Shown here piece by piece: positions 15,705-43,233 of a DNA stretch of 64,000 nt. The DNA is taken from positions 46,128,001 through 46,192,000 of the forward strand of contig NC_135820.1 of assembly GCF_964213995.1 (NCBI RefSeq), in the 5' to 3' direction. The translations under genes and the position numbers were made by a program. Below the pieces are notes generated by a model. It did no database searches. It had not been told where the DNA came from and saw only the letters and a program-made list of their open reading frames with translations. How positions within the stretch are numbered: the stretch's first letter is position 1; each line of letters begins with the position of its first letter. This DNA comes from Mustelus asterias (lineage: Eukaryota).

Positions 15705-17236
15705 TATCATAGAATCTACAATGCAGAAGGAGGCCATTTGGCTCATCAAGCCTGCACCGACAATAATCCCACCCAGATCTTATCCACGTAACCCCACATA
15801 TTTACCCTGCTAGTTCCTCTGACATTAAGGGCCCGATGTTACCATTGTCATTCTAAGTGCCGAATCTGGGTGTAGTACAGATCCGACTTAGAAATCCACT
15901 TTCAGACACCCCCATACGCTCTCAGCCATCTCCAGTCCGATTCACGCTGTGGGCGGGGCTTAGCGCTGCCAGAATGATCGGAGCTCTGAACTGCGCATGC
16001 GCAGTTAGAAAAAAATTGGAAAAAGCACGCCCGTGTCGGTTCGCTCCCGATCTGCAGAAACCAGAGAAAGTGGCCCGGCAGTGACAAGCAGGAGCGAGGG
16101 TGTATCTTGGGGCGGGGGCGGGGGGGGGCAGATGGATCTCTGGTGGGGGGGGGGGCGCAGATGGATCTCTGGTGGGGGGCGCAGGGGTGTCCGCTGCCAC
16201 TCTGCGGGCGATCAGTGGGGGGGAGGGGGGCAGGGGTGGCGATCGGTCTGAGTAGCAGGGGGTGGTGGATAAGGGGGACAGTGATGTATTCACCCCTCCC
16301 CACTACCCAGACCGATCGCCACCCCTGCCCCCTCCCACCCCACCGATTGCCTACAGAGTGGCAGCGGACCCCCCTGCCCCCCCACCAGAGATCCATCTGC
16401 CCCCCCCACCAGAGATCCATCTGCTTCCCCCTCCCCGAGATACATCTTACCCGCCTCCCTCCTCTCCCCTCCAAGACAACGATCTGGCTTACTCCCCACC
16501 CCCCCAGACGATGATCTCGCCTCACTCCCCCCCCCCCCCCCGCCCAGAGAATGGTCTGGCCTCACTCCCCCTCCCCTCCAGAGGAACATCTGACCCGCCT
16601 CCCCCCTCCCAAATAGACAATGATCGGCCCTCTCCGCTCCCCCCCACCCGTCCCTGCCAGAGATACATCTGACCCGCCTCCCTCCTCCCCCCCACCACTG
16701 ATCTGGGCCAGAGAGCCGTTGGAAACACTGAACGCGCTCTTCAGAGGCTGTAGCACCCTCTTTAGACTTTTATTTAGCAGGTCGCTAAGAGCGCGGTTCC
16801 GGATCGGCAAACGCGGTTTGCCGATCCGGAACCGCGCTCTTAGCGACCTGCTAATGCATTTAAATCGTCGTTGTGCCCGATTTGGGCGCGGAACGGATCC
16901 CCGCCATTCGCAGGTCTCGGTAAAGTGGCGATCTGCGCGTTCGCGGGTGCAGATTGCGATAAAGGCCTCACACCCGACTTTACCGCGATTTCGTGCCTGA
17001 AAACGGGTGCAAATTGTTGGTAAAATCGGGCCCTAAGAGGCAATTTACCATGGCCAATCAACTTAACTCACACATCTTTAGCTTGTGGGAGGAAAACAGA
17101 GCACCTAGTGGAAACATACGCCGACACGGAGAGAAAGTACAAACTCCACACAGACTGTGACCCGAGGCCAGAATTGAACCCGGGTCCCTGGCGCTATGAG
17201 GCAGCGGTGTAAAGCACTGTGCCACCATGCTGCCTG
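15705..17236 (-). mobile_element. HE1-like SINE split by a Harbinger-type element (parts 15705-15828 and 17037-17236)
   Basis: SINE sequence ...CTGACATTAA | GAGGCAATTTACCATGGCCAATC... is continuous across the insertion. Confidence 0.85.
15829..17033. mobile_element. Non-autonomous PIF/Harbinger-type element, copy 1 (fold-back centre)
   Basis: TIRs GGGCCCGATGTTACCA / TGGTAAAATCGGGCCC, TAA TSD at 15826-28 and 17034-36. Confidence 0.9.
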
Positions 17237-18534
17237 TTTCGTGTCTGTATGACTCTTTTTTCAACTCTGTTTTCTGATTTTTTATCGACGCTGACACAGA
17301 CCCTCCTATTCCACTAGCCTCAATTTTGTTCATAGGCCTTTTATGTGATATTGTGTTAAATATTTTCTTAAAATCTATCCAGATGATATCTATTGCATTT
17401 CCTTCATCAAATGTTTCTGTTCCTTTATCAAAAAAATCAATTTGATTGGTCAAGCACAACCTGTCCTTGCTGATCTGACTATCCTTAATTAACTCAAACT
17501 TCTCCAAACACCCGTTGACTTTCCCTGATTATGGATTCCAAAACCTTCCCCAGCACTCATTAAGCTGACCTGCCTGTATTGTTTAGGAATGTCCTTACAC
17601 CTGTCTTAAAATCAGAGTGTTATCCTATATTCAGTACCCTCATCCAAGTCATTGACATAGAGGCCGGAATTTTACCAGCACGCCCACCCCGTTTCTGGAG
17701 GTGGGCAAGGCTCGGAGAATAGCATTCCACGTTGGCCTCGGGCGGGATCGTACGAAACTCAGGCGGACGTGCCGGTAAAATTCCGTCCAGATAGCCCGAG
17801 CAATAATTGTTGTGACATACTCTTGCCAGTCCAAAAATGGCTCCTTATCGCTACTCTCTGCTTCCTGTTCACTAACAAATCCTCTCTCAATACTAACATG
17901 TTGACACTTACAACATGAACTGTTAATCTGCACAGTAACATCTGATGTGACACCTTATCAAATGCCTTTTGGAAATCCTCGTACACCACATTTGCAGTAA
18001 TACCATATCTACAGGCTCCTCTTTATCCACATTGCATGTTGCATCCTCAAAGAACTCCAATAAATTGGTGAAACACAATTTCTCTTTCACAAAACCATGT
18101 TTACTCAGCATGAATACATTAAGATTTTCGAAGAGCTCAGCTATAATCTCCTTAATAATAGATTCTAGCATCAATCTCACTTTTTGGAGGCCTGTGGAAT
18201 GCATTAGCAGTGTCATAATACTCTTTTTGCATCTTGACTTGAAACAAATGGATTTTAATGTTGCCCCCTCAAGGATATCCTCTTTCCAACTCCACAACGT
18301 CTTCCCTAATCAGTAAAACTACACCACCTGCCTTTTTCCTTGCCCTATCTTGTCTGAACGTTTCATATCATTGAATATTAGGTGACCAGTCCTCACCATC
18401 TTTAATCCACGTTCCAGTTATTGCCATTGTATTATTATCCCACATGGCGATTTGGGCTCGTATCTTACTCATCTCCTTCTCCATGGTTTGTGCACTTGCA
18501 TGCATGCTTTCAAAACCTGACTTTGTATTCCTTG

Positions 18535-18698
18535 ATGTGGAGATGCCAGTGTTGGACTGGGGTAAGCACAGTAAAAAGTCTCACAACACCAGGTAAAAGT
18601 CCAACAGGTTTATTTGGAATCATGGGCTTTTGGAGCGCTGTTCCTCATGATTCCAAATAAATCTGTTGGACTTTAACCTGGTGTTGTGAGACTTCTTA
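18535..18698. mobile_element. Miniature palindromic Penelope-like element (inverted terminal repeats only)
   Basis: Same terminus as 57041. Inverted arms TCTCACAACACCAGG..CAACAGGTTTATTTGGAATCATG. 12-bp TSD TTG(T/C)ATTCCTTG at 18523-34 and 18699-710. Confidence 0.8.
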
Positions 18699-18886
18699 TT
18701 GCATTCCTTGCAGCTCGTCTTGGTATGGTTCAATCTGATATAGTGCGACTTCCTCCTCTACTAATATTCAACACTTTTATTGTGCATTTTATTCCTCATG
18801 ATGGTGCCCACCATCCTGTCAATTTAGCTTATATCCTCCTCAACTACACTTGTGAACTTCCCCATGAGGGAATTGGTCCCTGTTAT

Positions 18887-19217
18887 TGTGGTGAACCATC
18901 GTTGGTTCCCACCAGGTAGTACTGAGCCAGGGTCTGGCCAGTACTATGAGTCTGTATATATGTTGCTGTTGGGGTTAGGGTTGGGTTGTTCTACTTGTTA
19001 CTGTTGGGGTTAGGGTTGGGCTGTTCTACCTGTATTATAGTTATTATGGTACATCCCAGTCGGGCTCCGCCTCCTGGGAGAGGTATAAAGGTCACTGCTC
19101 TGTCTGGGACCCCTCAGTCTGGGATTGTGTACTATAGATGGTAGCTTCATTGTAATAGTAAATAAAAGCCTTTATTTCCTTGAGCATCTCTAGCCTCGTG
19201 AGTTATATCGCGCATCA
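18887..19217 (+). repeat. Solo LTR of the same Gypsy family as 7060-7356
   Basis: TG..CA ends, perfect 5-bp TSD GTTAT at 18882-86 and 19218-22, TATAAA and AATAAA, internal 35-bp duplication. Confidence 0.93.
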
Positions 19218-20744
19218 GTTATATTTAGGTGCAATTTGCCCTTTTTGAATATGTGCTTCCTGCCCCAGAACTGGTCCCAATGCCCCACGAATCTGAAGCA
19301 TTCCCTCCTGTACCATGCTTCAAGCTATGCACTGATTTTCCTTATCTTCCTATTTCTACACTCACGAGCGTGTGGCACTGGAAACAATTCTAGAAATTAC
19401 TACCTTCTCTCGGAGCCTTTAGAATTTTTGTCCACAGAGCAGTAAAGGCTGGGTCATTGTCTAACTCAGCCTTGAATATATTCAGATATTTAACTAACAA
19501 GGAAGTCAAGGGTTATGGGGAGTGGGCAGAAAGGTGGTGTATAGGCTACAATTAGATCAGCCACAATTTCATTGACTGGGAGAAGCAAGCTTGATGGGCC
19601 GAATGGCCTATACTTGCTCCTATTAATAAGGTCCTACTTTTTATGTTCCTCCCAGGATCCTGAAAATCTATCAATATTTGTCTTTTCTATTGGTACTGAC
19701 ATGTATCACAACCTCTGACTTACTCTCCTACCCCTGCAGAATTTTCTTCACCCTCTCTATGATGTCTTTAACTCTGGCACCAGGGATGCAACGTGCCATG
19801 TGAGATTCATAATGGTGGTCACAGAAATGTCTGTCTGTTCCCCTAACTATAGAATCTCGTGAGAGAACTGAATGTCTATTCTTTGGTGTTCCCTCCTGTG
19901 CAGTCCTGTGCAGTCACTCCCCAATTGGTGACTGCAGTCCTTCAAAGTGTTATCACTCCCAGCATATTTAATACTGTGTACCTGTTTGAGAGTGGTATAT
20001 ATCCTGCAGATACCTGCACATCTTACCCCTTTCTAATTTTACAGATGACCACCCATCTACTATCCTGAATACTTCCAGAGTGTGTGGGGTGGCCACCTCC
20101 TGGAACATACACTGCAGGAAACTCATCATCCTTGATGCTCCCCAAGTTGAAAAATCCAGAGCTTGCATCCTAGTGGCTGGAGACACTTCCTACACCTGTG
20201 GTCCTTCAAGTCACATGGGGCGGACCTTTTCTGTCCCACCCACTACGGGAATCATAGCGGGCGGAACACGGACCATGCAAAGGTCCCCGTTGACCTCGAG
20301 CAGGATTTACTAGCCTTGCGGTGAGTGTGGCCGGAAAATCCTGCCCACAAAGTGTCTTGATGCTCCCATATGAAACAGCAACAAGTCTCAGATGCCCATC
20401 CACGATTTAAAGCAAATGGCCTCTATTGCCTCTTTTAGAATCTAGTTATTGCCTTATTTAAATTATCCATTTTAATTAATGCCGCTAGACCTGATCAGTG
20501 TTAGTATTTTTATTAATTCAATTCCTGTTATACATACATTGATGGATTTTTTCAATTTCCTGGCTTCAATTTGAATGAATGCCCGAGTTAGAGAGCAAGG
20601 AGAAACACTCACACGCTGGTTAGATGCATTGGCCATGCTAAATTCTCCCTAGGTGTACCTGAACAGGCACCGGAGTGCAGCAACTAGGGGATTTTCATAG
20701 TAACTTCATTGCAATATTAACGTAAGCCTACTTGTGACAAATTT

Positions 20745-21873
20745 GTTTGGGGTAGGGTGCTAGCGTGGATTGGGGATTGGCTATCCGACAGGAAGCAGAG
20801 AGTCGGAATAAATGGGTGCTTTTCTGGTTGGCAGATCGTAACTAGTGGCGTGCTGCAGGGATCGGTACTGGGGCCTCAACTATTTACCATTTATATAGAC
20901 GATCTGGAGGAGGGGACTGAGTGTAGGGTAACAAAGTTTGCAGACGACACAAAGATAAGTGGAAAAGTGAATCGTGTGGAGGGCGTAGAAGGTTTGCAGA
21001 GAGATTTGGACAGGCTGAGTGCGTGGACGAGGATCTGGCAGATGGAGTATAACGTTGACAAATGCGAGGTTATTCACTTTGGAAGAAAGAATAGCAAATT
21101 GGATTATTATCTAAATGGAAAAAAATTACAACATGCTACTGTGCAAAGGGACCTGGGGGTCCTTGTGCAGGAGACGCAAAAACCCAGTCTGCAGGTGCAA
21201 CAGGTGATCAAGAAGGCAAATGGGATGTTGGCCTATATCGCAAGGGGGATAGAATATAAAAGCAGAGATGTCTTGCTGCATCTGTACAGGGCATTGGTGA
21301 GGCTGCAGCTGGAATACTGTGTGCAGTATTGGTCCCCTTATTTGCGGAAGGATATATTGGCCTTGGAGGGAGTGCAGAGAAGGTTCACCAGGTTGATACC
21401 AGAGATAAGGGGTGTTGATTATGAGGAGGGACTGAGCAGATTGGGTTTGTACTCGTTGGAATTTAGAAGGCTGAGGGGGGATCTTATAGAGACCTATAAG
21501 ATAATGAAGGGGCTGGATCGGGTAGAGGTGGAGAGATTCTTTCCACTTAGAAAGGAAGCTAGAACTAGAGGGCACAGCCTCAAAATAAAGTGGGGTCAGT
21601 TTAGGACAGAGTTGAGGAGGAACTTCTTCTCTCAGAGGGTGGTGAATCTCTGGAATTCTCTGCCCACTGAAGTGGTGGAGGCTACCTCGTTGAATATGTT
21701 TAAATCACGGATAGATGGATTCCTGATCGGTAAGGGAATTAGGGGTTATAGGGATCAGGCGGGTAAGTGGAACTGATCCACTTCAGATCAGCCATGATCT
21801 TATTGAATGGCAGGGCAGGCTCGAGGGGCTAGATGGCCTACTCCTGCTCCTATTTCTTATGTTCTTATGTTCT
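20745..21873 (+). mobile_element. Young 5'-truncated CR1 LINE; open ORF 20757..21776; inserted in a SINE tail
   Basis: 339-aa RT C-terminal ORF (KFADD) and (GTTCTTAT)n tail. Flanked by SINE pieces 20615-20740 and 21874-21896. Confidence 0.92.
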
Positions 21874-23534
21874 CAATAAATAAACTTAAACTTAAATCAT
21901 TTACCTCCTTTCCTATAGTCCAACACTTTCTTTTTGTTGAATGCCCTCAGTCCGCCTGAACCATCCCAGATCTTTTCTTCTCCTGCCGATCGATCTTGCT
22001 ATGTTCTCACAATCGGTGTTGTTCTGCCCCTGCTCCTTATTCCTCCTGTCGCCTCGCTATTCCCTCACTCTTGGTACTGCGCCAGTACTTTTTACCTCCC
22101 CTGCTGGTCTCACTGTGCTCCCGCTTGCAAATAAATATCACAACCTGAAAATAGAGGGAGAGAGAAAATCAATTTCCTAATGTTAAAGGAACATTGATGA
22201 AGCACAGTGCCACCAAAGAAATCAGTTTACTTGGCCTCAGGGCCATAATACAATGATTATCTAAACATTTTGCTGGAGTATTTTGGACTGGAGAGCAGTC
22301 TAAATGGCTAAGCCAAAGTGTAGCTGGCAACAGCAGTATAAAGAGGGCTAGGATGTGAATGGTAAAGGAATGGGCTCAGCAGCAGATCTGATTGTCGTAT
22401 CCACTTGACTTTCAGTTGGAGCAACCTTTTGTTCTGTTTCCTATCTGTAATATTCTTCTCTGGCAATCCCTTCCAAAGGTGAGGTGAAAATTATCCTGCA
22501 ATGTCATGTGGATATTGTTATCTGATAGTGGTCACATGATGGCCAATGTATCGGAAATGGCATTTCCACAAAAAATATTAAGCTAAGATAGACACCGCAC
22601 AAATATTAGCTTGTATATATCATTGATACAGTTCAGCAGGCTAAGCCAAACATATTGTGAAGATAACTTACATTTATTGCTCTCTGCAGAATTTTATCTA
22701 TGTTGAATATTTTTCTCTTTGTCATGATAAACATTGTTCATTCATCTCACACATGTATCTCTTGTCTCTTTTTCTTAATACAAATTTACCTTCTAAATCA
22801 GTTAGCTATCTAAAGTGAGTTCTTCAACACCTGCTGGTGGCTCTGGGAGAAACTGCCAGTGTTTCTTTCACAATAACTTCATTGCAGCATTAATGTAAGC
22901 CTACTTGTGACACCAGTAAATAAACTTAAAACTTAAATTCACCCCATCTGGTAATTTTCACTTGGGTTTCAGTGGGTTGGGGACATGAATGTTCACACAG
23001 AAGGTGTGCCACCTGCAGCAAGTTGTGATGGTGCATTTGCCTTCAATATTCAGTTTGCAATTATATAATGCATCACTATTGTATCACAAGCACAAAGTGG
23101 GCTTGTAGCATTGAACGTCATGTTCACCGCTCTTCTGTTGATGTGTAATCCTTTGACAGGCATTGGTCATTCATGTTCTTTGTGACATTCTGAATGATGA
23201 TATATTATAAAAGTAATCCATTTTCATTGTGTTCACCTTCCACCACCAATGCGGTTTAACCTTGCTCCAAAATGTGACTTCCAAAGCTTGGAAGCTGAGC
23301 CCATTATCGAAAGCTGCCAATTTCTCAACAGCACCAAATGTTGATGTAGATCAGAGGACGAAATATGGCAGAATAATCCAATTGTCTGAATATTTGATGG
23401 TAGAGGTTAGCAGAGCTAAAAAAGCCTAACATGTATAGAGTCTGCAATGTGAAATTGGTTACGATTTCCCTGGCCCGCTGTCCTGTCAAAGAAGGCTGTG
23501 AGGCTGGTTACACTAATTTGCAAATACTAATCGG

Positions 23535-25215
23535 GATCCCGATTTTACCAAACACGGGCGCGAAATTGTGGTAAAATCGGGCATCAGGCCTTTAACACAA
23601 TCTGCACCCGAATCCGAGCAGATCGCGGTTTTACCGACACCCAATTCGGACGCGGGTCCGGTCTGCGCCCGAATCGGGCGGCCCGACGATTTAACTGCAT
23701 TAGCATGCATTTAAATCGACTTAATGAACCGCGCGCCCAACTCTACCGCCAAACCCCACTTTACCGTCTTCTGGTCCGTTCCGGATCCGCGCTCTAGGCG
23801 ACCTGCAGAATAAAAATCCAAAGCGGATTTCTATTCTGCAGGGGAACCTTCGAAGCCCATCCTCCTCGACCATCCCCCGCTAACCACCCTGGCAGACACC
23901 CCTCCCCCCCACCCCCCCCCCTCCGGATCAGACCCCCTGGGAGGCAGGCCCTGCCCGGCAGATCACCCCCCCCCCCCCGCCACCCCCGGGATCAGACCCC
24001 CTGGGAGGCAGGCCCCCCTCGGCAGAGCACACCCCCAACCTACCTCGATCGCTGGTCTCCCTCCACCATCCTTCCGACCTGCAGTCCTTCGAGAGCCTGC
24101 AGCACCTTCTTGGCCTTCCGCTGGCGTCCGCCTGAGGAGGGGGGGTGGGCTCAGATGGATCTCTGGTTGCGGGGGGGGGGAGGATGGCGGGGGGGGGGGA
24201 GGATGGACTTGGGAGAATCTTGCAAACTGAAAATAATGTAGCATCGTCTTTGTGCTGCCTAATTATCTATGGGAAAGGTAATTAAACTACAGTGTCCTAG
24301 TGAGCAATTAGTGACCTGTATAATACATTTGTGATCTGTAACTGGATTGTTGATGTCCCTGTAGCCATGGGCCAGGTGCTCAAATGTTCAGAGTCATGTG
24401 GTGAACTTGGAAGAATTGTCCCCGTGGTGGAACTTGGTTGGAAATAAGATTCAAGGAGATTACTAAATCTGGGAAATCAACCATAGTGAAAAGAAGTTTG
24501 TATTGGCAACTCTTCTCTCACATTCCATGGCAGACGTGCCCCTACTTATGAATGTGATTTGCATGGGCAATGTTGGGTGCAGCTAATCTGCCTCTGGAGC
24601 AGCCTTGGATCCTTTCTTTCATCTTGTTTTCACCTGGACATTGCACAGAATTAGAGGAATTCCCTTTGGAAGATAATGTCAAAATTATAATTGCAGGAAC
24701 TAGAAACCTGACAGTCAAAACTTTGGGAAAATATTTCAAAATATACAAACCCCCATCCATATTTTGCAATATTTTCCCATGGCTACAGGGACATCAACAA
24801 TCCAGTTACAGATCACAAATGTATTATACAGGTCACTAATTGCTCACTAGGACACTGTAGTTTCATTACCTTTCCCATAGATAATTAGGCAGCACAAAGA
24901 AGATGCTACATTATTTTCAGTTTGCAAGATTTTCCCAAGTCCATCGCCCCCCCCCCCCCCCCCCCCCCCCCCCCACCCCTCTCTTTCTGCTGCTTTTCTC
25001 TTTTGCGCCCGGGCACGCTGCTTCAGAATTTTTTTCAAACTGCGTATGCGCAGTTCAGAGCTCCGATCGTTCCGGCAGTGCTAAGCCCCGCCCACTGCAC
25101 AGATCGGACTGGAGCCGGCAAAAAGCGGATGGGCGCGCTGCAAAGAAGATTCCGGGCTCAGATCTGCACTACGCCCGCATCCAACCCTTCGACTCCAAAT
25201 GGTAAAATCGGGCCC
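23535..25215. mobile_element. Harbinger-type element copy 2, carrying a 170-bp inverted repeat and an AT-rich insert
   Basis: Left end GATCCCGATTTTACCA, right end TGGTAAAATCGGGCCC. Subterminal homology to copies 1 and 3. Flanks CGG/TGG. Confidence 0.85.
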
Positions 25216-25765
25216 TGGGACTAGATTGTTTGGGCTTACTAAAGTTTCTGCCACCACCTGTGAAGGTCCACACCAGCGGGGATCTTAAGGCCCCCAGAGG
25301 TCAGGCTCAGGTACAGATGGAGGTGCCCTTTGCGTAATACCAGCCTGGCACCCTGGCACTTCTCACCGGTCACCCTGGTACTGCCCACTGGGCACCCTGG
25401 CACTACCAGTTTGGCACACTGGGAGTGTCCAGTGGACACCAGGCAGTGCCCTGGGGAGGACGGGGTCTCTGGGGCTGGGCCAGACACAGACGAGCCAGAC
25501 CAGAGAGTGGGGACATAGGACGGTGGGGAATGGAGGGAACTCTAAATTGGGGTTTGGGACTGCTGCTTGGGCCAGTACTAAAAGGCCAGCCATTGGGTTG
25601 ACAAGGGGGGTTCGAAGGTCAGCCATGGGGAGGCAGATTTGGGGGTGGGATCGGAGGCTGGCCATGGGGGTCGGTGGGGAATTGGAGGCTGGCCATGGGA
25701 GATTGGGGCATGGGGGAGGCGGCTATCGGGAGGCCAGGGCCGGTGATTGGGATGCCGGCAATGTT

Positions 25766-26109
25766 CATAGAATCATAGAGTAGAAACCCTACAGTGCAGA
25801 AGGAGGCCATTCGGCCCATCGAGTCTGCACCAACCACAATCCCACCCAGGCCCTACCCCCACATGTTTACCCTCTAAGGCCTCTAACCTACGCATCTCAG
25901 GATTCTAAGGGGCAATTTTTAACCTGGCCAATCAACCTAACCCGCACATCTTTGGACTGTGGGCGGAAACCGGAGCACCCGGAGGAAACCCATGTAGACA
26001 CGAGGAGAATGTGCAAACTCCACACAGACAGTGACCCAAGCCGGGATTCGAACCCAGGACCCTGGAGCTGTGAAGCAGCAGTGCTAACCACTGTGCTACC
26101 GTGCCGCCC
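25766..26109 (-). mobile_element. Full-length HE1-like tRNA-SINE
   Basis: Head GGGCGGCACGGTAGCACAGTGGTTAGC, B box GGTTCGAATCC, CR1-like tail. Confidence 0.9.
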
Positions 26110-31107: not shown

Positions 31108-31129
31108 ATTTTACTGCAGCAAAGTTAAC

Positions 31130-32622: not shown

Positions 32623-32964
32623 CTTGCAGGTGTGAGATGGTCAATGTGGCTTGGAGGAAAGAATTACTGCTTACCCCTTTCTGTAGATGACAATTATTTG
32701 AAATATATATTTTTAGCCTCTCCAAAGATGTAGGCGAGAAGTGGAGAATGTGGAAAATTCCCTGAAGTTAACAATGAATGAGGATGTCGTAAACTAACTG
32801 TCACCAAGTGGTCACAAAGTTCAGCACCCAAACTCCTTGCCTGGTGCATGGTAAAGCGGAAGAGTTGCTTGACATTTCAGCTTGGCACTCCAGCGCACTT
32901 GAAGATAGGGGAGATGATGCTACAATCGTGCTGTGCCTGGTGCATATCAAGCTAATCCAGGATA

Positions 32965-35250
32965 AAGGGCCTAAAAGAGGGCTTTGTGCCCGGCGCCAAA
33001 TGGTTTGTAATCATCCTTGTTCCATGCTACTTGGGGCAAACCGGATCTGACCCAGAAAGGGCGTGAGACTGATTAGTGTATTTGAAGTAGCATTTAAATA
33101 TGCTTAACCCATTCAACTCCGGAATCTCCCAGCTCTCAGGATCTTCTGACTCACAGGTGTGGCTAGAATCTGGCAAGAATCGCTAAAAGCATGATGGCCA
33201 TGCTAGGGAGGCGGGGTGGGGGTGGGGGGGGAGGCGGGGGGAGGATGGGGAGGGGGGGGCGCTGGGGGGGCGGTGTGGTGGTTGGTGTTTGTGGAGGCCA
33301 TTGAGGCTCCCAGGTGGTCAGGGACATCACTGGGCATTGTTCATCCAGCAGTGTCCACGTGGCACTGGCACTGCCACGAAGGCACGGCTTGTGTACCAGC
33401 GTAGTTCCAAGGGGTGGGGCCTGAGTGAAGGGGGCGCTATGACAAGGGGCTATGAAGTGGGGTGCTATGACGGGGGCTGTGATGGGGGCGCTATGAAGGA
33501 GATCATGAACGGGTGAGGCATGAAGGGTGGACTTGTGAAAGAGTGGGACATGAAGGGGGGTGTATTTCTGGTGCTCTGAAGGAGGAGCCATTGGGGGGGC
33601 TCCAGTGCCCCGATGCCAGCAATCCATGTTGGGGAGGGGGTAGAGAAACATGCTGCCAAAGGCGGGGTGGTTCTGATGTCTGTGGGGGTAGGAAGGGGGT
33701 GTTCCGTTGCACTGTGAGATCGGGGTGCCCTTTCAAAATGGTGCTCGATTGCTTTGCAATTGGGCTATTGGAAGGGACGTGTTTAGGCTTTGCCACTTCC
33801 ATAACCGGCCACTCGCCTCTCTCCCAAAGAATGACTGAGTGTGGGGCAATTGCGTTCCGGTCCGTGCTGGACAGACTGGCGTGGATTGCTCCTGTTTTCA
33901 TGTTTGGGAAAGTTCTGCCAGAATTCCTGTAAGGTGGTAGCAGCCAGGCCCACTCGAGGAGGATTCACGCAGCCTTGGAGCATAAATGGATGAAGTTGAC
34001 AGATTTTAGGGACACCTTTCAATTTAACAACACCCGTTCATAGTCACCAGATAGATAGCCTAAATGTACAAACCAGAAAATGTCCAATTATTATTGTTTT
34101 CATTGGCTTATGAAAAGCATTTACATCGCATGGTGAGGTCGTCTGGGATAACCGGGCACTATCTTTAAATCAGAACCAGACAGAGTGTTCCAAACTTCCG
34201 CCACTCATTATGGAAAAGAAGTTAGAAACACTTCTTCCATAATGAATAGCGGAAGTGTGGAACACTCTCCTACAAAACACAATAGATGCTAGCTCAGTTA
34301 AAATCTATCGATCCCAGATTGAATATTATGAGCGGGATTTCAAGGCCCTGTTTGCCACAGGTGCAAATCCCATTATGGCCACAAATGTTCATGAGTGGGC
34401 CAGAATGAGATTTGCACCAGGGAGATCTGAGAATGAGATCTGGCTCACCTCCTGCCGACTACATCATCAAGTTCACACCTAGCAAGGCAGTGTACCTGAT
34501 CATCATCAATTTAAATATACTTAAATATCCCTAAACAGCTGAACGCTGTTACTTCTGAGGGTGCCAGAAGCTCCTCCCCTGCCACCGCCAGTGTGATGTC
34601 ACAGCAGCAGAACCACTACTGGTCTCCAGCAGTCTAGATGATCATGCCGAGGTAACCCCCCGGTGGGCCGGCCCTGCCTCCTTGCACCCTGGCAGTGCCA
34701 ACCTGGCAGTACCAGGTTGGCACTGCCAAGAGGTGCAGCCTGAGGGCAGGACCCCTAGGGAACCCTATTGGGGGATTCCCATAATTTGGGTTGGGAATTG
34801 GATTGGCGATGGTGGGGGGAGGGGCTGTGCCTGCATAGTCTTATGGCTGGGGTGGAGGCGTAGGCCTGCTTGGCAGGGATGGGGATGGGATGACTCCAAT
34901 GGCTTAATGCCAGTGATGATAGCGAGGGGAGGGTCGAGTCATCCTGATGCCAGTGATGATGGAGGGTGACCTGTTCATTAGCTGTTGGGGAAGTTTGCTT
35001 TCTGTGGTTGAGGGTTGGGGGTGTTCCTCTTGTCAGTAGTTGTGATGTCTGTGGTGAGGGGGCTGGAGGGGAGTCAGTAACTTGAATTTGAGATCAGGGC
35101 ACCCTTTCAAAATGGCGCTCCAACTTCTGTGGAGCTGGTCTTGCCAGCGTCTTTAGGCCCCACCCCCTCAAAAATGACAGCACAAAACATACCTCCCTGC
35201 TTTTTTTAATGAAATGTCAGAAGATCTGGGGAGAAGTATGACAGTACCTG
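32965..35250. mobile_element. Decayed GC-rich non-autonomous DNA transposons (probably Harbinger-derived), at ~32965-33920 and ~34330-35240
   Basis: Share motifs (GGGTGCCCTTTCAAAATGG.GCTC, GGCACTGCCA, G/C runs) with each other and with 25240-26372, 54557-55347 and 60321-61453. No coding capacity seen. Confidence 0.45.
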
Positions 35251-36616
35251 ACGCTCTGGGTTGCACTCTCCCCAAAACCAGAAAATCCTACCAGAGATCA
35301 ACGGACCTTTGTATGGTCCTCCCCCCTCCCCCCAATCTGCTGCGATTGCCGTGGCAGGCGGCACGGGAAAATTCCGCCCTCTGCCATTTTTTAGAAACTC
35401 CCACCCTATCTTTTATTCGCCAAGTGTATCAAAGATTAAAGGATGCGATTTTCCAGCTGCGCTCGCCCTGAAACTGGAAAATCCCACGCGAGGTCAATGG
35501 ACCTTTCCATGGTCTGCCCCTCACCTGCTACGATTCCCATGGGGGCGGAATGGGAAAATTTACCCCATATCGTCAGAGCGAGTGGATGGAGCTAAGATTC
35601 AGATTTTAGAAATAGTGGAACAGGCTTAATGGCTTACACTTGCTCCTATGTTCAAAGCAGCTCTTTTATTGTGTACCATGCACTTTCATATCTAGCTGGG
35701 CATATACTCAAGCTACTATTGAAAACTTACATCCTTGGTACATTGTATACAAAATTGCTTTAAATGTGACCAACCTATTTGATGCGTGCCGTTAAGATAT
35801 TAAGTTAAGAACAATTTTTCACGATCAGTTATCCAGTCACCAATATAATAAGTATGTAGATAGAGTTTAATCAGAGTTTAAATTGGTTATAACACTAGTA
35901 ATACAGCAGAAACATACAGCTATGTCATGTAACGAGTACTGATCAAGGTTGAAAAGGATAGCTAGCATGAGCAAACTGCTCTTTTTTCCCTTCTTTCTCT
36001 TTTCTTCTCAGCGCCTTGCCTTTTCTCAAAGTCTTCCAAACTACCCAGCAGTGCTAGAACAAAGCCAGCATGCATCTACTCATATGCTATCCTCTTCACC
36101 ACCTATCCCAGTGGCTTCTTCAAAAACTGATCCTTTTCAGATTATTTTTCAGGTGTGTACCTCGGTGTTATGTTAATTATCCTGGAAAACATCTTGACAT
36201 AGTGTGCAATGGTATGTCAAGCTCCTTGCTGAAACTACAGAGTAAAAGCCTACCCTTAAGTTGCCTACCACCTTCCATGGCCTGTTAAAGCCATTGTATG
36301 TACATTCTGCCCTTGATCAACCAGGTCTTTACATCATTCTCCCTTATTTTATTTTATGGTATTCTTCATGATCAATTATCTTGCTCCCTCAAAACATTTC
36401 ATCTCTCCAAGTGCTCTCCCACAGTTGCAGAGGGCTCTTCCGACCATAGCCCCCTTTCAGGTTAGCTGCACCTGTTATCACTTGATAATAATCATTCCAC
36501 TCATGTTGTTTCCAGAGAAACAACAATCCTAAGCAGTTCCAGTGAAGTTGAAACTCATAGCACCAACTTAATCCAAAATGCTCACTTAATGACACACAAG
36601 CTGGTCTACAGCCTGG

Positions 36617-37382
36617 TGTGACAATACTTTGCCTTTAAGAAATGTATTTATATCATGTTTCTTGTAAAGGGTTTGTTCAGAATTCAATTCTGTTTAAACA
36701 GCGCCAATTTGTCAGTTCTAGGCAACCCACATGCTGAGAATGCAGAAGAATAACTTATCCTAGAAAATGGGGTGTTTTTAAAAAATCTGAGCTAGCGCAT
36801 TTTTGTATATTTTAGGCTTTCCCCTGGGGTTTCGGAGTAGAGTTTAATTAGGTTGATTGACATGAGGCAGAGTCATGTGAATAGGAAGGGCTATGCTTAG
36901 ACAGTCAAGTGGGCAGATTCTGCTTGGGTCTGCAAGAAACAAGAGGTATTTCTCTCGCTCTCTCGAGGTTGCTGCTTGAGTGTCAGAAGGCAGATGTCTC
37001 TCTACATATCTTTCTCCCGGGTCCTCAAAGGTTCTGGAAATGGTAACAAGTACAAATCACGCAAGCCTGTTGTTTCCTGACTGATGTTTGAAGAGGAGTT
37101 TAAGTCTGTTAGGAATATTGCTTAAATTGGAACTAATAGAGATAGGTTAGCAGTTAAGAATTGTATCTTGTCATGTTTAAGTATTTCAATTGTTAAAAGT
37201 TGAGCTAATTCATTTGTTGTATTTGAACTGTATTGTTGAATAAAGTTTGTTTTGATAAAAGCTTCCTAGTATGTCAACAGAATCACAGCTGGAGTGAAAC
37301 ACCTTATCCTCACACTAATGCCAAAATAAAAAATATTCGGGCTTTATAATATACTTTGGGGTTTCTGATCTGGCCCCTAACA
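36617..37382 (+). repeat. Solo LTR of a second LTR-element family
   Basis: TGT..ACA ends, 4-bp TSD CTGG at 36613-16 and 37383-86, AATAAA at ~37239. Confidence 0.7.
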
Positions 37383-38126
37383 CTGGTCATGGATGCCATC
37401 AATGACCCCAACCTACTTTGGAAAATATCATAGCTCGGCAACATGTTATCCTATTGCCCCAGTTTAGTGTGAAACGAATGAAGGTTTGTACTATGTTGAC
37501 CAGTCGCCTGTATGATATATGAGTAAGCATATATGAGTGGGTGAGTGTATGAGTGGGTGAAACTACCTAGCAATGGTACCTAGTCATAGCTCTAAAAGAT
37601 GTTCTTTCAGCTTGCTTCACTTCAAGCATGAATAATACATTTGTGGCCATTTGAGTTCATCCCGTCATTAATTTTAACTTGTCTTTGTTTGCCATCATTC
37701 ATGGGATTCTTCCCTGAGATACCTTGTCACTCGCTGAGCTGCTGTGCAAGTTGGTATTGTAAGGTTTCCTTTCTCAGAATCCCTATTTTTCAGCTGTCCC
37801 TTTTACTGCTGAAGCCTTGAAAATATTTCAATCTGTCAGTCTTCAAACAAATTAATGTATAATATTTGACTATTCTCGACTTCAGATAAACTTTACACGC
37901 TGTGAGGAGAAAAAGCAATCTAAAAAGAAAAAATATCTGCCAACAAAATATATTATACGATAAAAACAGAAAAATAACAAAAATGTTTCTGACTGTGGAA
38001 GTGAGCCATCACACATATGATTTTCCTTGTGTCTACTCCAGATGGGAAAATATAGCATTCAGCATAACTCTGTCTCAAATGGACAGAAAGTCATTGAATC
38101 TACTGTAATTTTGATATCAAACTTGA

Positions 38127-38960
38127 GCTTACGTGAGGTTTACTAGATTGATACCAGGTGAGACAGCCTGGACTTGTTTTCATTGGAGTTGAGAAGAGTG
38201 AGGGGTGACTTAATTAAAGGTAATAAGATCCTGAACTGTCTTGACAAGGTGGACTTGGAAAGGATGTTTCCTCTTGTGGGTGAGTCCATAACAATGGGAC
38301 ACTGTTTTAAAATTACGGCTCACTCTGATAAGGGAGAAGTGAGGAGAATCTTTTTCCCCCAGAACGTTGTGCGACATTTGTATTCTCTGTCTCCGAAGGC
38401 AGTGGAGGTGGGGTCATAGAATCCCTACATTGCAGAAGGAGGCCATTCAGCCCATTCAGTCCTCACTAACTCTCCCTCAGAGCATCCTTTTCCAAGCCCA
38501 AACCCCGCCCCATTCCTGATACCCCACGCACTTACCCCACTAATCCCCCTAACCTAGGGACATCTTGGGACACCTAGGGAAATTTTAGTATGGCCAATCC
38601 ACCTAACCCGCACACCTTTGGACAGTGGAAACTGGAGCACCCAGACGAAACCCATGCAGGCACAGGGAGAACATGCAAACTCCACACAGTCACCCAAGGC
38701 TGGAATTGGAACCCGGGTCCCTAGTACTGTGAGGCAGCAGTGCTAACCACTGTGCCACCATGCCACCCATTAATCATTGAATATTTCTAAGGAAGAGATA
38801 GATAGCTTCTTATTCAGCAAGGGAATCAAAGGTTGCCAGGAGTGAATGGAAATGTGGAACTTAAAACACAAACAGATCAGCCATAATCTTATCAACTAGT
38901 GGAGCTGGCTCAAGGGGCCAAATGGCCTACTTCTGCTCTTATTTTGTATGTTCGTATTAT
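38127..38960 (+). mobile_element. CR1 3' fragment with an HE1-like SINE (~38415-38768, minus) nested inside
   Basis: FSLELRRVRGDLIK..MFPLVGES..GHCFK and CR1 3'UTR. SINE head and tail are reversed inside it. Confidence 0.8.
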
Positions 38961-39880
38961 ATGTGAGTCCACTTTTGACTAATTTAAAAGGCACATTTGA
39001 AGATCATACTGGGAATAAACTAGCTGTACAGGTGTGAGAGATTTCTTCCAACTCCCCCAACATCTGCTCGACTCCAACGCTACCGTCCAGAATGGCTGTG
39101 GCTACAAATTTCAATTACTTATTTATAAAGCATTTAAATTATTATTTCAGCTGATATTAGTTGTATTCAGTGTATCGTGGTTTTATTATGCACATATAAT
39201 GGGGGAATGCAGCTTTATTTCAGGTAATGGTGTCTGCTGCCTACAAGTCTTGACCAAGGTTAATGAGCTGATGATGAGATGTATAAATAATGAAACGTGA
39301 GACAAAAAATATTATTGTGCATTCAAACCCTGTTTGTGGGGCTTGGGAAGGGCAGTGTAAAAGACGGAGGCATTGATTACATCAGAGAATTGCAAAGTCA
39401 ATTTACTGCTTCCTATAAATAAGCCAAACTGAAAAGAAATAATCAAGTATCTTGATAAGCATTCTCATACAGTCATATAAACAACTGATAGAGATATCAG
39501 CTTAAATTCTGTGCTTCACCCAAATGGAAATTGGATATGAGAGCATAGTAACGCAAATTGTCTAACCTGTGCTTCCAACATGGAGCATGGGATTGTGGAA
39601 TGAAATATACCTTCTGAATGCTGAACTAAACTAGCCAATGGTGGCAATTTTCAGTCACAGTATTGTGTTTCGTGCCTCAAAGTGGCCAGCTTGAAAATTG
39701 AGGTCAAAAGGCTCACTCCATCGCTTTTCAAAACTTGCCTGTCGCCTGGCCATTCAAATATGGTGGAGGGCTGATTGCCACACCCCAGGAATGGGCGAGA
39801 TTATGGATTAAAGTAGGTGATATTTAGGACAGGACGGCCATGTTGTTCAAAGGTCAGTTCGAGGTCAGACATAATGCCAC

Positions 39881-40368
39881 AAAAACAGAAAATGCTGGAA
39901 AATCTCAGCAAACTCTGACAGCATCTGTGGAGAGAGAATAGAGTCCAACGTTTTGAGTCTGGATGACCCTTTGTCAGAACTAAGAGCAAAGAAAATCAGA
40001 AGAGATTTATACTATGAGGGTGGCTGGGGGGGGGAGGGGGTTAATAGTGCAAAGGGAATGTAAATGATAATGAGGAAGGCCAAGAGAGGTGCTAAAAGTG
40101 TATATTAAGTGATCAGAATGTGTGAATGGCAGAACAGAGATACAGATTGTTATGGGACTGCCTGAGGAATGTGACAGTTGCCCTAAAGGGGGTTGGGTAG
40201 GGGGGTTGGCAGAAAAATGGAGAATGAGAATGGAGAAGTGGAAGAATAGAAGTGAGAATGAAGGATGATAAAAATGGAATGAAAAGTAGAAATGAAATAA
40301 ACTTGCTGAGATTTTCCAGCACTTTTTGTTTTTGTTTCAGGTTCCAGCATCCGCAGTATTTTGCTTCG
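39881..40368. mobile_element. Non-autonomous Penelope-like element (second family) with inverted termini
   Basis: Inverted AAAAACAGAAAATGCTGGAAAATCTCAGCAA ends, perfect 14-bp TSD AGACATAATGCCAC at 39867-80 and 40369-82, decayed hammerhead at 39942-39981. Confidence 0.7.
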
Positions 40369-40479
40369 AGACATAATGCCACGCCTGTGAACAAACTCAC
40401 TCCGCCTGAGAAATGGCAGTGGATGATAAGTTGAAGTTGCTGATGAAGGTATAGGAATTAGTATGACCTGAATATAATT

Positions 40480-41450
40480 GCCATCTTCTTCTTAATGTTT
40501 AGTGAGAGAAAATTACAATTCATCCGGGATCAATCGTTGGACAGTTTGTCTGATTGCACGGAGTGCAATGGAGACATCATGTTGAATTGTGGAAAGTTAG
40601 AACTGGTTGTCCTCAGTATTCAGAAAGTTCCATGAATGTGGTTGATAGCAACGGGTCTCAGGTCGATCAAGAAAAAGAGGGGACTTTGGATTGATATTTG
40701 GGAGCTTGCGAGAAGATGGTGCAAGGATGAGAACACAAGCCATTGCTGGATATGCTGTGAATACGATTCAATAAGTGCAGTGGAACCAAGGAAAGACAAT
40801 TCCCCCCCAAAGTTGACCATGCTGAGAGCTGCAAAGGGTTGAAGAGGGGATAGTCTACCATGGTCCTCATAGAAACTGTTGTTAGTCACTTTGTGAAGGA
40901 CAGTTTCAATGCTTTGGAAGTGGCAAAAGTCTGATTGAAACTTGATGCCAGGCAGATAGTCAGATGGTACAGAAACTGCCTTTAGAGTCAACTGGCCAGC
41001 TTACATATGGAAATTAACCCATGCTGGGGGATAATGTTGCAGATGGGTAACCTGTAGCTGAGTGATATGAGATGACCAAAGAATAGAAAACTTGAGCTCA
41101 GACACACATCTGAGTAATGAGAGGAAAATCTGTTTGAGGAAATGTATTGGCTGCATTCTGGGAAATAGAATCAGAACGGTTCAAGGACAGTGAGCCATAC
41201 TGCAATCTGGCAGGGTATCTTTAGTGATTTGAACCAGAATGGGTTTGCTGGTGTGCACTGGTCATAAATCAGATTTTGGGTACTCAAGCATGGAGAGAAT
41301 GTAGTACTGAGTACTTATGACTCAATCAAGGACCTTGGAGAGAGAAGACATGTTTTAAACAGCTTGGTGGTTTCCCAGAAAATATGAGTTTTTGTAAGGA
41401 CGGGTGGGTGATGAGAGTGATTTAAAGAAATATTTGGGAAAATGTTGCAA
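40480..41450 (-). pseudogene. Ancient L2/CR1-group LINE RT relic
   Basis: FQSDFCHFQSIETVLHKVTN..., resembling the FQSGFR..HSTETAL.KVTND motif. Confidence 0.55.
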
Positions 41451-41467
41451 AAATCAATAGATACACA

Positions 41468-43233
41468 GGGCCCGATTTTACCAAAGCTTCGCGCCCGAAA
41501 ACGGGCGCGAAATGGCAGTAAAGTTGGGCGCAGGCCTATGCCGCGATCCACACCCGATTCCTAGCGGATCGCAACTTTACCAACGGCCGATTCGGGCGCC
41601 ATTCCAGTGCGCGCCCAAATCGGCCAGCGCGACGATTTAAATGCATTTGCATGCATTTAAATCGACTTAATGAAGCGCACGCCCAACTTTACCATCAACT
41701 CCCCCTTTACCAGCGTTCGGCCCAATTCGCATCCGTGCCTTTACCGACCTGATAAATAAAAGTCCAACTTGTACTTTTATTCGGCAGGGGAATCGCCGAG
41801 GCCCACCCTTCGCGGACACCCCCTCTAACCACCCCGGCAGACCCTCCTCCCCCGGGATCGGACACGTCTGGGAGGCAGGCCCCCCGGCAGAGCACACATC
41901 TAACCTACCTTGATCGTGGTCTCCCTCCACCATCCTTCCTGCTCACCTTCAGTCCTTCGACAGCCTGCAGCACGTTCCTGGACACTGACTTTGAGCCACG
42001 GCTGAAGTGACCGGGCTTCACACAGGTCCACTGGCGTCTGCCGGAGGAGGGGGGGTGGGCCCAGTTGGAACTTTAGTGGAGGGTGGGGGGGGGGGGGGGG
42101 TGGGCCCAGTTGGAACTTTAGTGGGTGGGGGGGGAGGGGTGGGATGAGGAGAGGGGGTGGGTCCACATCGCCCTCTTGGGGGGGGTGCTGGGAGGGGAAG
42201 GGGTGTGACTTATCATCCCCTGGGGGGGTGGGAGGGGAGTGGGGGGGTGACGTCTCATCCTCTGGGTGGTGGGGGGGGTGGAGGGGGTGTGACCCTCATC
42301 CTCTGGTCGGGGGGTTCCGCTGCCTGTCTGCGGCCGATCCCTCCTGGCACCATTACTGGTACACTACCAGCCACAGCCATCTCTCCCGCTCTCTCGCACC
42401 TGCAGGGAAGAGTAATCTGTGGCTGGTAGTGTACCAGTGATGGTGCCGGGGGGATCAGCCGCAGACAGGCAGCGGAACCCCCCCCGACCAGAAGATGATA
42501 CGTCACACCCCCTCTCCACTCAGCACCCCCCCCCCCCCCCCGCCATCCCCCCAAGGAATGAGACATCACACCACCCCTTCCCTTCCCCAGGGAATGAGGC
42601 ATCACACCCCCTCCCCTCCCGCCCCCCCCAGGGAATGAGACGTCACACACCCTCTCCCCACCCCAGGAATGAGGCGTCACACCCGGCCCCCCACCCCCCC
42701 CAGGGAATGAGACGTCACACCCCCTCCCCTCCCGCCCCCCCAGGGAATGAGATGTCACACCCCCCCCCCCCCCCCCCCCGGGGAATGAGACGTCACACTC
42801 CCTCTCCCCCGCCCCCATCCCCCAGGGGATGAGACATCACACCCTCTCTCCGCCCCCCCCAGGAATGAGACGTCACACCTCCCCTCCCCTCACCCCCCCC
42901 CCCCCCCCCCCCCCCAGGGGATGAGACTTCACACCCCCTCTCCCCCCCACCCCCCAGGGAATGAGATATCACACCCCCCTCCCCTCTCACCCCCCCAGGG
43001 GATGATAAGTCACACCCCTTCCCCTCCCCCCCCCCCCCCCCCCACCAGAGGATGAACAGCAGAGAGGCTCTCTCCACTCTCTGCTTTTTGCTTCGCGCCC
43101 GGGCACATTCTGTCAGATTGTTCCGGCGGCGCTAAGCCCCGCCCATTGGACTGGCGCCGGAAAAAAGCGTATGGGCGCGGGCTCGGATCTATTTGACGCC
43201 CGCACCCGGCACTTAGTCTCTAAATGGTAAAAT
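41468..43233. mobile_element. Harbinger-type element copy 3 with fold-back centre and minisatellite; right TIR truncated
   Basis: Left TIR GGGCCCGATTTTACCA; right end ...TGGTAAAAT. Long subterminal homology to copy 2. Confidence 0.85.
42490..43030 (+). repeat. GC-rich minisatellite, ~13 units of ~35-55 bp
   Basis: Core (C)nAGGGAATGAGACGTCACAC(C)n is repeated. Confidence 0.85.

What the first reader, a model, noticed from the sequence alone, without database searches (positions are those of the whole stretch)
15829..43233. Harbinger-type family with conserved ends and a variable central slot that is a different long fold-back in each copy
Seen: three elements (15829-17033, 23535-25215, 41468-43233) share the TIR GGGCCCGATTTTACCA and homologous subterminal arms. 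In copies 2 and 3 homology stops at the same place (...GAGGAGGGGGGGTGGGC) and resumes at CTGCTTTT..GCGCCCGGGCAC. Between these points each carries unrelated sequence arranged as an inverted repeat, with G-runs on the left and C-runs on the right: copy 1 ~16099-16450, copy 2 24202-24945, copy 3 ~42170-43050. Inference: a Pack-type cargo element whose G-rich centre repeatedly triggers template switching, capturing DNA and producing hairpins. It could be a source of dsRNA, siRNA or cruciforms. I do not know of a description of this, but cannot search for one.
Basis: partly seen in the sequence, partly recalled or inferred. Interest (0 to 1): 0.7.

Follow-up and report, generated by a model that had tools for sequence, protein, structure and literature searches.

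The report
Transposon mirrors and spreads host mRNAs
These three repeats belong to a cut-and-paste transposon family with thousands of copies in a likely shark genome; their middles are not one-off captures but a few widely shared hairpins, some built from intron-free pieces of the host's own messenger RNAs (RPL39, OPA1) that were likely patched in from RNA and then mirrored, and they would yield double-stranded RNA against housekeeping genes if transcribed.

Summary
The three elements and their fold-backs are real, but the centres are not unique to each copy. Each centre has 916-2,631 candidate matches genome-wide. The family is PIF/Harbinger: 3-bp duplications in 49 of 68 closed copies, a transposase-bearing member with the same TIR, 4,195 exact arm-motif hits.

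Copy 1's hairpin is the element's own sequence. Copy 2 is a one-arm deletion of a 1.1-kb palindrome of an unidentified 540-nt sequence. Copy 3's hairpin tip is RPL39 3'UTR, left from a spliced, mirrored RPL39 mRNA (parent gene found; 1,055 exact exon-1/2 junctions). The 'conserved arm' beside the slot in copies 2 and 3 is itself captured RPS19. Sister lineages carry OPA1 and MRPL55.

The palindromes are reworked: both arms share private changes (13 seen, 0.3 expected), deletions pass from one arm to both, spacers lie in both orientations (21:25; non-palindromic control 41:0), and copy 3's tip sits in another lineage's arms.

Likely mechanism: cDNA patched into breaks, fold-back synthesis, then transposition. 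Transcription is untested. The scan found this family before on other DNA of this genome. New variant of Pack-type capture; interest 0.65.

The parts
15829..17033 (-). Copy 1: non-autonomous Harbinger, opposite orientation to copies 2 and 3, with a TAA target duplication, inserted into a SINE-like repeat
   Evidence: the SINE label is recalled, the repeat on the right flank is family D6/D17
16121..16431 (.). Copy 1 fold-back (82%), made of the element's own G-rich sequence; no listed cargo; 2,631 candidate matches
   Evidence: compared by eye with L118, L106, L135, L164
16774..16854 (.). 81-nt, 96% hairpin in copy 1's arm; copy 2 has only a 41-nt version at the matching place
23535..25215 (+). 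Copy 2: non-autonomous Harbinger; left TIR has 2 mismatches; flanking triplets differ by one letter
   Evidence: a public contig crosses the left junction (23400-23616, 2 differences)
24068..24132 (-). Remnant of captured RPS19 (one exon of the parent gene, antisense) at the edge of the slot in copy 2
   Evidence: 52 nt at 86.5% and 17 nt at 100% to the exon at C20:1523210
24206..24779 (+). Copy 2 cargo: full arm (about 540 nt), 14-nt spacer at 24745-24758 and the first 21 nt of the mirror arm; source not identified
   Evidence: source searches returned element copies in every locus examined
24776..24941 (-). Outer 165 nt of the mirror arm; the rest was lost by a one-arm deletion private to this copy
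   Evidence: 9 of 26 loci keep both arms at 500 nt or more, the others have deletions with differing breakpoints
41468..43233 (+). Copy 3: non-autonomous Harbinger with a truncated right TIR; arms closest to an RPS19-only lineage
41932..42043 (-). Captured RPS19 piece (antisense), 84.8% over 112 nt to the parent exon
   Evidence: Pfam S19e E 5.2e-4, 20.2 bits, below the 29.4 cut-off; longer spliced versions in sister loci
42348..42445 (.). RPL39 3'UTR hairpin tip: sense 42348-42416 (92.8% to exon 3), antisense 42417-42445 (96.6%); the coding part is deleted from both arms at the same junction
42480..43050 (+). C-rich minisatellite, unit 36-42 nt, with about 3 inverted copies at 42178-42314

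Best explanation
These are non-autonomous members of a PIF/Harbinger DNA transposon family whose centres are a few lineage-specific palindromes, some built from intron-free host mRNA pieces, which were likely patched in as cDNA at breaks in the hairpin-prone middle, likely mirrored by fold-back DNA synthesis, and then multiplied by transposition. Steps: (1) shown: the element's own G-rich middle forms a palindrome in some lineages (copy 1). (2) Inferred: such middles stall or break, and repair uses reverse-transcribed mRNA. Shown: RPL39 and RPS19 cargo joins three exons, OPA1 at least two; no poly(A) tail or duplication is seen at the RPL39, RPS19 or OPA1 junctions. (3) Inferred: a 3' end folds back and copies its own strand, which mirrors the cargo. 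Shown: the RPL39 turn-round point lies at a short imperfect inverted repeat of the parent 3'UTR. (4) Shown: amplification to hundreds or thousands of sites with distinct 3-bp duplications. (5) Shown as pattern, mechanism inferred: arms are copied onto each other, spacers lie in both orientations, one arm is often deleted, and tips move between lineages. The hairpins are most likely selfish passengers.
For: Parent RPL39 gene at C14:8582809-8590117 with introns of 1.7 and 5.3 kb; the cargo joins exons 1-2-3. The exon-1/2 junction 20-mer has 1,055 exact hits, control 0. Of 25 loci with the intact exon-2/3 word, 1 is the gene and 24 lie in elements. The distal 3'UTR 22-mer occurs once exactly, at the gene, so no full-length free retrocopy was found as a DNA donor. 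A non-palindromic sister lineage (67 candidates) keeps the parent states and a 51-aa ORF (Pfam E 4.7e-24) and shares the 5' junction. RPS19 exons are joined in L353, L354, L356, L358, L362. OPA1 has 608 candidates and a 2,384-nt palindrome in L301, and its parent exon with a splice donor was found. MRPL55 has 129 candidates. Arm copying: 13 substitutions private to one copy yet present in both arms against 0.31 expected in 17 copies, none at CpG. Copy 3's deletion is on no arm in 15, one arm in 2 and both arms in 25 of 62 spacer-bearing loci. Orientation: RPL39 21:25, copy-2 cargo 17:14, non-palindromic control 41:0. Copy 3's tip is 94-96% like the RPL39 lineage while its arms are 66-80% like it and 84-89% like L145. 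Break repair with spliced cDNA is documented in mouse zygotes (PMC4516963, abstract); fold-back priming in PMC7999016 (passages).
Against: No founding event is seen, so break patching cannot be told cleanly from ordinary LINE retroposition followed by deletion. Free RPS19 retrocopies exist, two with A-rich tails, and MRPL55 in L113 ends in the element's T-run. The source of copy 2's cargo, and of cargos B, C, D and E, was not found, so an RNA origin is unproven for them. 29 of 68 copies lack a long central repeat. Cargo C shows no arm sharing (0 in 25 copies, 69-nt arms) and almost no flipping (27:1). The two deletions shared by both arms of L092 mark a sub-lineage, not one copy. 15 of the 25 both-arm deletion loci were chosen by likeness to copy 3. 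On the arm tree of the copy-2 lineage, orientation is somewhat clustered (9 changes against 12.0 shuffled, 24-28 of 500 as low) and one origin is not excluded; for RPL39 it is unclustered (12 against 13.1) but well-supported branches force only 2 changes.
Confidence: 0.6

Rival explanations
1. Ordinary LINE-driven retroposition put whole mRNA copies into element copies, as for bat Helitrons; later deletions and fold-backs removed tails and duplications.
For: Free RPS19 retrocopies without element arms nearby (L355, L359, L363, L366) show retroposition works in this genome. SINE and LINE insertions in the elements are common. MRPL55 in L113 meets the element at its T-run. The family deletes readily.
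Against: No tail or duplication at RPL39, RPS19 or OPA1 junctions in the loci read. Unrelated pieces are joined directly (RPL39 with cargo D, RPS19 with cargo E). The OPA1 turn-round point is a patchwork of short switches (read by eye).
Confidence: 0.27
2. DNA-level Pack-TIR capture (gap filling or fork template switching) from processed pseudogenes that already lay in the genome.
For: Old free RPS19 retrocopies exist. This route is proposed for animal Pack-TIRs (PMC8277862, passages and section 9).
Against: 24 of 25 loci with the intact RPL39 exon-2/3 word are in elements and the 25th is the gene. The distal RPL39 3'UTR has one exact match, the gene; two 2-mismatch hits were not examined and the control gives 1. 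By eye the element-borne RPS19 is closer to the gene than the long free retrocopies are.
Confidence: 0.06
3. The hairpins are kept by the host as sources of regulatory dsRNA or endo-siRNA against RPL39, OPA1 and other genes.
For: Very stable predicted hairpins; arms are homogenised; hairpin lineages are more numerous than the non-hairpin RPL39 lineage (1,181 against 67 candidates).
Against: Most copies lose part of one arm (17 of 26 copy-2-type loci). Copy 3's lineage has deleted the RPL39 coding part from both arms. Homogenisation has a mechanical explanation.
Confidence: 0.05
4. First reader's per-copy capture, or separate MITEs nested in the centre, or long-read fold-back artefacts.
For: The three centres in this window are unrelated to each other.
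Against: Each centre is shared by hundreds of copies. 58 of 59 outer edges of copy 2's cargo adjoin element backbone, and the flanks are mirror images rather than direct repeats. The two arms differ from each other, insertions have 3-bp duplications, and contigs of two public runs carry the RPL39 turn-round position 31 letters from their ends.
Confidence: 0.02

Closest known systems
PIF/Harbinger superfamily (PMC2836001, passages; PMC9179366, passages)
   Same: DDE_Tnp_4 transposase in an element with the same TIR, a Myb/SANT-like frame on the other strand, 3-bp duplication, extended target preference.
   Different: TIR of about 16 nt rather than 25-50 bp; non-autonomous members carry host mRNA and long central palindromes. 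PMC9179366 found no Harbinger in elephant shark, whereas this genome has 10,689 transposase candidates (150 scored).
Turmoil-1 of C. elegans (PMC2572040, first of two parts of the text read)
   Same: A Harbinger that took up two host coding pieces at neighbouring sites and holds them mirrored in its inverted repeats; the authors tentatively infer a capture hotspot.
   Different: Its rsp-2 piece keeps the intron (DNA capture), the mirror is terminal, and there are 9 copies. Here the pieces are spliced, the mirror is central, and copies number hundreds to thousands.
Helitron-amplified nested retrogenes of Myotis bats (PMC4224331, passages)
   Same: Spliced host mRNA, including a ribosomal-protein mRNA, inside a DNA transposon and amplified with it; serial captures in one lineage.
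   Different: Rolling-circle carrier; four nested cases with 118 copies in all; poly(A) tails and duplications kept; no mirroring described in the passages seen.
Animal Pack-TIRs (PMC8277862, passages and section 9)
   Same: Host sequence between the TIRs of a cut-and-paste element; multicopy cases spread by transposition.
   Different: That survey discarded intronless copies of multi-exon genes, found most cases single-copy and only four multicopy cases in frogs and alligators, and the words 'Harbinger' and 'shark' do not occur in its main text.
Arm-to-arm conversion and spacer inversion in sex-chromosome palindromes (search listing and abstract starts only); MULEs with multiple long TIRs (PMC3310237, abstract)
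   Same: Arms kept alike by copying; inverted repeats carried by an amplifying TIR element.
   Different: Those palindromes are single loci with arms over 10 kb; here arms are 0.1-1.2 kb and sit inside thousands of mobile copies.

Membership tests
PIF/Harbinger | DDE_Tnp_4-type transposase in an element with the family's TIR | tested here: met
   L118 (3,948 bp, both TIRs, TAA duplication) holds a broken transposase 85% like the L071 protein; the 414-aa frame in L200 hits PF13359 at E 6.6e-41
PIF/Harbinger | Second gene with a Myb/SANT-like domain | tested here: inconclusive
   L205 frame hits PF13837 at E 6.8e-5, 23.6 bits, below the cut-off of 27; the matching frame of L118 gives no hit
PIF/Harbinger | 3-bp target site duplication | tested here: met
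   49 of 68 closed copies; 6 of 68 for 2 bp, 0 for 4 or 5 bp. The pairing script preferred matching triplets where several TIR pairs were possible
PIF/Harbinger | Extended, symmetric target preference | tested here: met
   Of 49 sites: C at -1 in 41, A at -2 in 39, A at -4 in 39, G at +1 in 39, T at +2 in 33
PIF/Harbinger | TIRs usually 25-50 bp | tested here: inconclusive
   About 16 nt here; the cited range is given as usual, not required
PIF/Harbinger | Mobilisation needs both proteins | not testable with these tools
   needs a transposition assay
Pack-TIR (Tan et al. 2021) | Non-transposon host sequence between TIRs, parent locus elsewhere | tested here: met
   RPL39, RPS19 and one OPA1 exon found without element arms nearby; not found for copy 2's cargo
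Pack-TIR (Tan et al. 2021) | DNA-level duplication; intronless copies of multi-exon genes excluded | tested here: not met
   cargo joins exons
Pack-TIR (Tan et al. 2021) | Multicopy cases share structure but differ in target duplication | tested here: met
Nested retrogenes amplified by a DNA transposon (Thomas et al. 2014) | Several exons without introns | tested here: met
Nested retrogenes amplified by a DNA transposon (Thomas et al. 2014) | Poly(A) tail and own target duplication | tested here: not met
   none at RPL39, RPS19 or OPA1 junctions read; MRPL55 ends at a T-run in L113 and its 11 other fetched loci were not examined
Nested retrogenes amplified by a DNA transposon (Thomas et al. 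2014) | Helitron carrier | tested here: not met
   TIR element with 3-bp duplication and DDE transposase
Separate MITE nested in the centre | Own target duplication and free-standing copies | tested here: not met
   58 of 59 outer edges adjoin element backbone; flanks are mirrored, not direct repeats
Hairpin-RNA / endo-siRNA locus | Transcription through both arms and processing to small RNAs | not testable with these tools
   only contigs could be laid
Named Dfam/Repbase family | Match to a curated consensus | not testable with these tools

The most novel reading that the evidence does not exclude
The middle of this family is a self-symmetrising, exchangeable cassette: breaks there capture germline mRNA as cDNA, recurrent fold-back copying mirrors whatever lands, spacers flip at individual insertions, and tips move between lineages. 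The genome thus carries well over a thousand mobile hairpin remnants of its own RPL39 and OPA1 messages, some of which are transcribed into dsRNA or endo-siRNA that act on the parent genes.
Probability: 0.15. Interest if true: 0.85.

Novelty: new variant of a known kind. Interest (0 to 1): 0.65.

Why it matters
Amplification of spliced mRNA by a DNA transposon was described for bat Helitrons at about a hundred copies, and the main survey of animal Pack-TIRs excluded intronless cargo. Here a vertebrate cut-and-paste family has done it at least four times, to hundreds or thousands of copies, and has mirrored at least two of the messages. Eight literature searches listed no paper on this; that library lacks most subscription journals, and Repbase and Dfam could not be checked. 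The family also offers thousands of natural replicates of short palindromes of known ancestry, so rates of arm copying, spacer inversion and one-arm deletion become measurable. It would also test how a vertebrate tolerates possible dsRNA against housekeeping genes, and it warns that such copies can be mis-annotated as RPL39, RPS19 or OPA1 genes.

Tried and rejected
Source of copy 2's cargo: five pattern searches built to exclude element context (1, 5, 9, 13 and 28 hits). All hits of the first four and 11 of the 28 of the last were read. None was a source locus; a few had lost one flank to other repeats. It is not part of the transposase-bearing elements examined, has no long frame in a majority sequence and two of its frames have no Pfam hit.

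Sources of cargos C and D: the 30 best loci of each lie in elements, as do four split hits of C; two frames of D have no Pfam hit.

Expression: no RNA holder listed. Two runs guessed to be RNA gave contigs: X1 holds one 234-nt contig over the spliced RPL39 arm and one 311-nt contig over 24401-24711 (6 differences), with no contig on the element arms; X2 covers arms and cargo. These are contigs of runs not on record as RNA, so they are a weak hint that copy 2's cargo is host-transcribed, and no evidence on hairpin transcription or editing.

My first idea that the one-arm deletion of copy 2 had a shared breakpoint was wrong. An insertion in the L077 transposase that looked like a mobile centre is a SINE-like repeat. 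The orientation count for copy-1-type tips is uninformative because the word occurs on both arms. Whether breaks or insertions are enriched at the hairpin tip was not tested on an unbiased sample; the tip insertions were selected by the pattern. The 17 loci, the 11 non-self loci and the two inexact hits were fetched but not examined. No supplements were read.
Full report
Observation. The window is G000:C20:46128001-46192000 of a 3.68-Gb genome. That it is a shark is my inference from recalled SINE and LINE types and agrees with earlier notes; no call names the organism. Copy 1 runs opposite to copies 2 and 3 and has a TAA duplication inside a SINE-like repeat. Copy 3 has lost most of its right TIR. 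All three centres fold back far better than shuffles.

Family. Exact arm motifs occur 2,134 and 4,195 times, controls 0 and 1. I fetched 94 regions covering 95 of the first 100 hits listed; 68 elements could be closed by TIRs, and unclosed ones were left out of the counts. 49 of 68 have an exact 3-bp duplication, none a 4- or 5-bp one, and the target is symmetric beyond the triplet. L118 has the same TIRs and a broken DDE_Tnp_4 transposase; a Myb/SANT-like frame in L205 scores below Pfam's cut-off. These features fit PIF/Harbinger as described in PMC2836001 and PMC9179366 (passages).

The centres are lineage features. Copy 2's centre has 916 candidate matches, copy 3's 1,181, copy 1's 2,631 (40 scored each, so these are rough). 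In the 68 closed copies, 39 have a central inverted repeat with arms of 60 nt or more and 37 carry one of nine listed cargos: RPL39 20, copy-2 cargo 8, RPS19 7, cargo C 3, OPA1, MRPL55 and cargo B one each.

Copy 1. Its fold-back (16121-16431) matches none of the nine cargos. By eye it is the G-rich sequence near the end of L118 and L164, doubled in reverse as in L106 and L135.

Copy 2. The full form is a palindrome of about 1.1 kb: two arms of about 540 nt and a 14-nt spacer. 9 of 26 loci keep both arms; the rest, including this copy, have one-arm deletions with differing breakpoints. 58 of 59 outer edges adjoin element backbone, and the flanks are mirrored, so it is not a nested MITE. An older relative at 76-85% identity has shorter arms and a longer spacer. 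The source was not found.

Copy 3. Its tip is RPL39 3'UTR. Sister copies hold the 5'UTR, the coding sequence and part of the 3'UTR twice, head to head (Pfam). The parent gene lies at C14:8582809-8590117, and the cargo joins its three exons across introns of 1.7 and 5.3 kb. The exon-1/2 junction occurs 1,055 times exactly. A non-palindromic sister lineage has the same 5' junction, keeps the parent states and in some copies a 51-aa frame, and continues into an unrelated 635-nt piece. The mirror begins next to a short imperfect inverted repeat of the parent 3'UTR (read by eye), as fold-back priming predicts (PMC7999016, passages). The 3'UTR beyond that point has one exact match, the gene.

The edge of the slot. 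Five sister loci hold a longer RPS19 piece that joins three exons. Further lineages carry OPA1 (608 candidates; 2,384-nt palindrome in L301; parent exon with splice donor in L340, 1 of 9 hits) and MRPL55 (129 candidates; parent not sought). Captures have thus been laid one after another in the same region, which is the true part of the 'slot' idea.

The palindromes are reworked. In 17 copy-2-type loci, 13 substitutions are private to one copy yet present in both arms, against 0.31 expected; none is at CpG. RPL39 gives 2 against 0.14 in 4 copies; cargo C gives 0 in 25 copies with 69-nt arms. Two deletions shared by both arms of L092 mark a sub-lineage. The deletion that removed the RPL39 coding part in copy 3 is on neither arm in 15, one arm in 2 and both arms in 25 of 62 spacer-bearing loci; the other 20 lack one arm or have other junctions, and 15 of the 25 were chosen by likeness to copy 3. 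The spacer lies in either direction: RPL39 21:25 (4 undetermined), copy-2 type 17:14, cargo C 27:1, non-palindromic control 41:0. On trees of the arms, RPL39 orientation is unclustered (12 changes, shuffled 13.1; at least 2 forced), while for the copy-2 type one origin is not excluded (9 against 12.0); both trees are poorly resolved. Copy 3's tip is 94-96% like the RPL39 lineage, but its arms are 66-80% like that lineage and 84-89% like an RPS19-only copy, which points to exchange of tips between lineages.

Artefact check. Arms differ from each other, insertions have their own duplications, contigs of runs X3 and X5 carry the RPL39 turn-round position 31 letters from their ends, and a contig of X4 crosses copy 2's left junction. 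These runs may come from the sample that was assembled, so they test the assembly, not a second animal.

Mechanism. I favour break repair with cDNA at the hairpin-prone middle, then fold-back synthesis, then transposition (0.6). Repair with spliced cDNA is known from mouse zygotes (PMC4516963, abstract). Ordinary LINE retroposition with later loss of tails is the main rival (0.27): free RPS19 retrocopies exist. That G-runs start the switching is not shown. Function as regulatory dsRNA is untested and, given frequent arm loss, unlikely for most copies.

Comparison. Turmoil-1 is a Harbinger with mirrored host pieces, but with an intron and nine copies (PMC2572040). Bat Helitrons amplify nested retrogenes, with tails and 118 copies (PMC4224331). 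The animal Pack-TIR survey excluded intronless cargo (PMC8277862). It works like a Pack-TIR but fails that survey's DNA-level criterion. Eight searches listed no description of the combination; Repbase, Dfam and supplements were not seen.

Earlier notes. Eight unreviewed notes of this scan describe the same family on other DNA of this genome. I had RPL39, OPA1 and MRPL55 before (note) and RPS19. I took from them the Helitron paper and the break-patching wording. In the summaries shown, none mentions arm copying, spacer orientation or tip exchange.

Verdict. Observation partly confirmed, interpretation partly supported, new variant of a known kind, interest 0.65.

Noticed in passing
window 11061-12033: AT-rich inverted repeat, arms about 205 nt at 88%, about 560 nt apart; no match to this family or elsewhere in the window.
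   Followed up: no
window 57089-58089: Inverted repeat, arms 147-167 nt at 92-97%; by eye the same repeat as an insertion in L156; resembles a Penelope-like retroelement piece (label recalled, not tested).
   Followed up: no
window 33218-33496 and 60635-60953: G-rich and C-rich tracts with short tandem repeats that did not match the family's backbone library; possibly other transposon families.
   Followed up: partly
L097, L103, L109, L121, L124, L128, L153, L155, L156, L160, L166 (right ends): The same variant right TIR ending in a C-run occurs in copies with different cargos, which suggests exchange between copies or a recurrent end error.
   Followed up: no
L164 element positions 977-1394: Two SINE-like pieces head to head form a 418-nt fold-back inside an element.
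   Followed up: no
L277 (G000:C6:90812000-90817000): An RPS19-carrying member of the family is nested inside cargo C of another member.
   Followed up: partly
L400-L405 (G000:C6, 39.05-39.95 Mb) and L422: A cluster of nearly identical copy-2-type elements, probably a local segmental duplication.
   Followed up: no
L180:1457-1609 and other RPL39+D loci: Some non-palindromic copies keep a full 51-aa RPL39 frame with its start context; they could be called as genes or even be translated.
   Followed up: partly
L173:802-1436; L125:914-1481; L121:2789-2864; L356 upstream of RPS19: Four more captured pieces without an identified parent: D (635 nt, repetitive coding-like, 67 candidates), C (564 nt with 69-nt mirrored ends, 40 candidates), B, and E (A/T-rich end like a 3'UTR).
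   Followed up: partly
G000 whole genome: 10,689 DDE_Tnp_4 candidates (150 scored), although PMC9179366 reports no Harbinger in elephant shark.
   Followed up: no
L355, L359, L363, L366: Free-standing RPS19 retrocopies without element arms within 1.5 kb, two with A-rich tails.
   Followed up: partly
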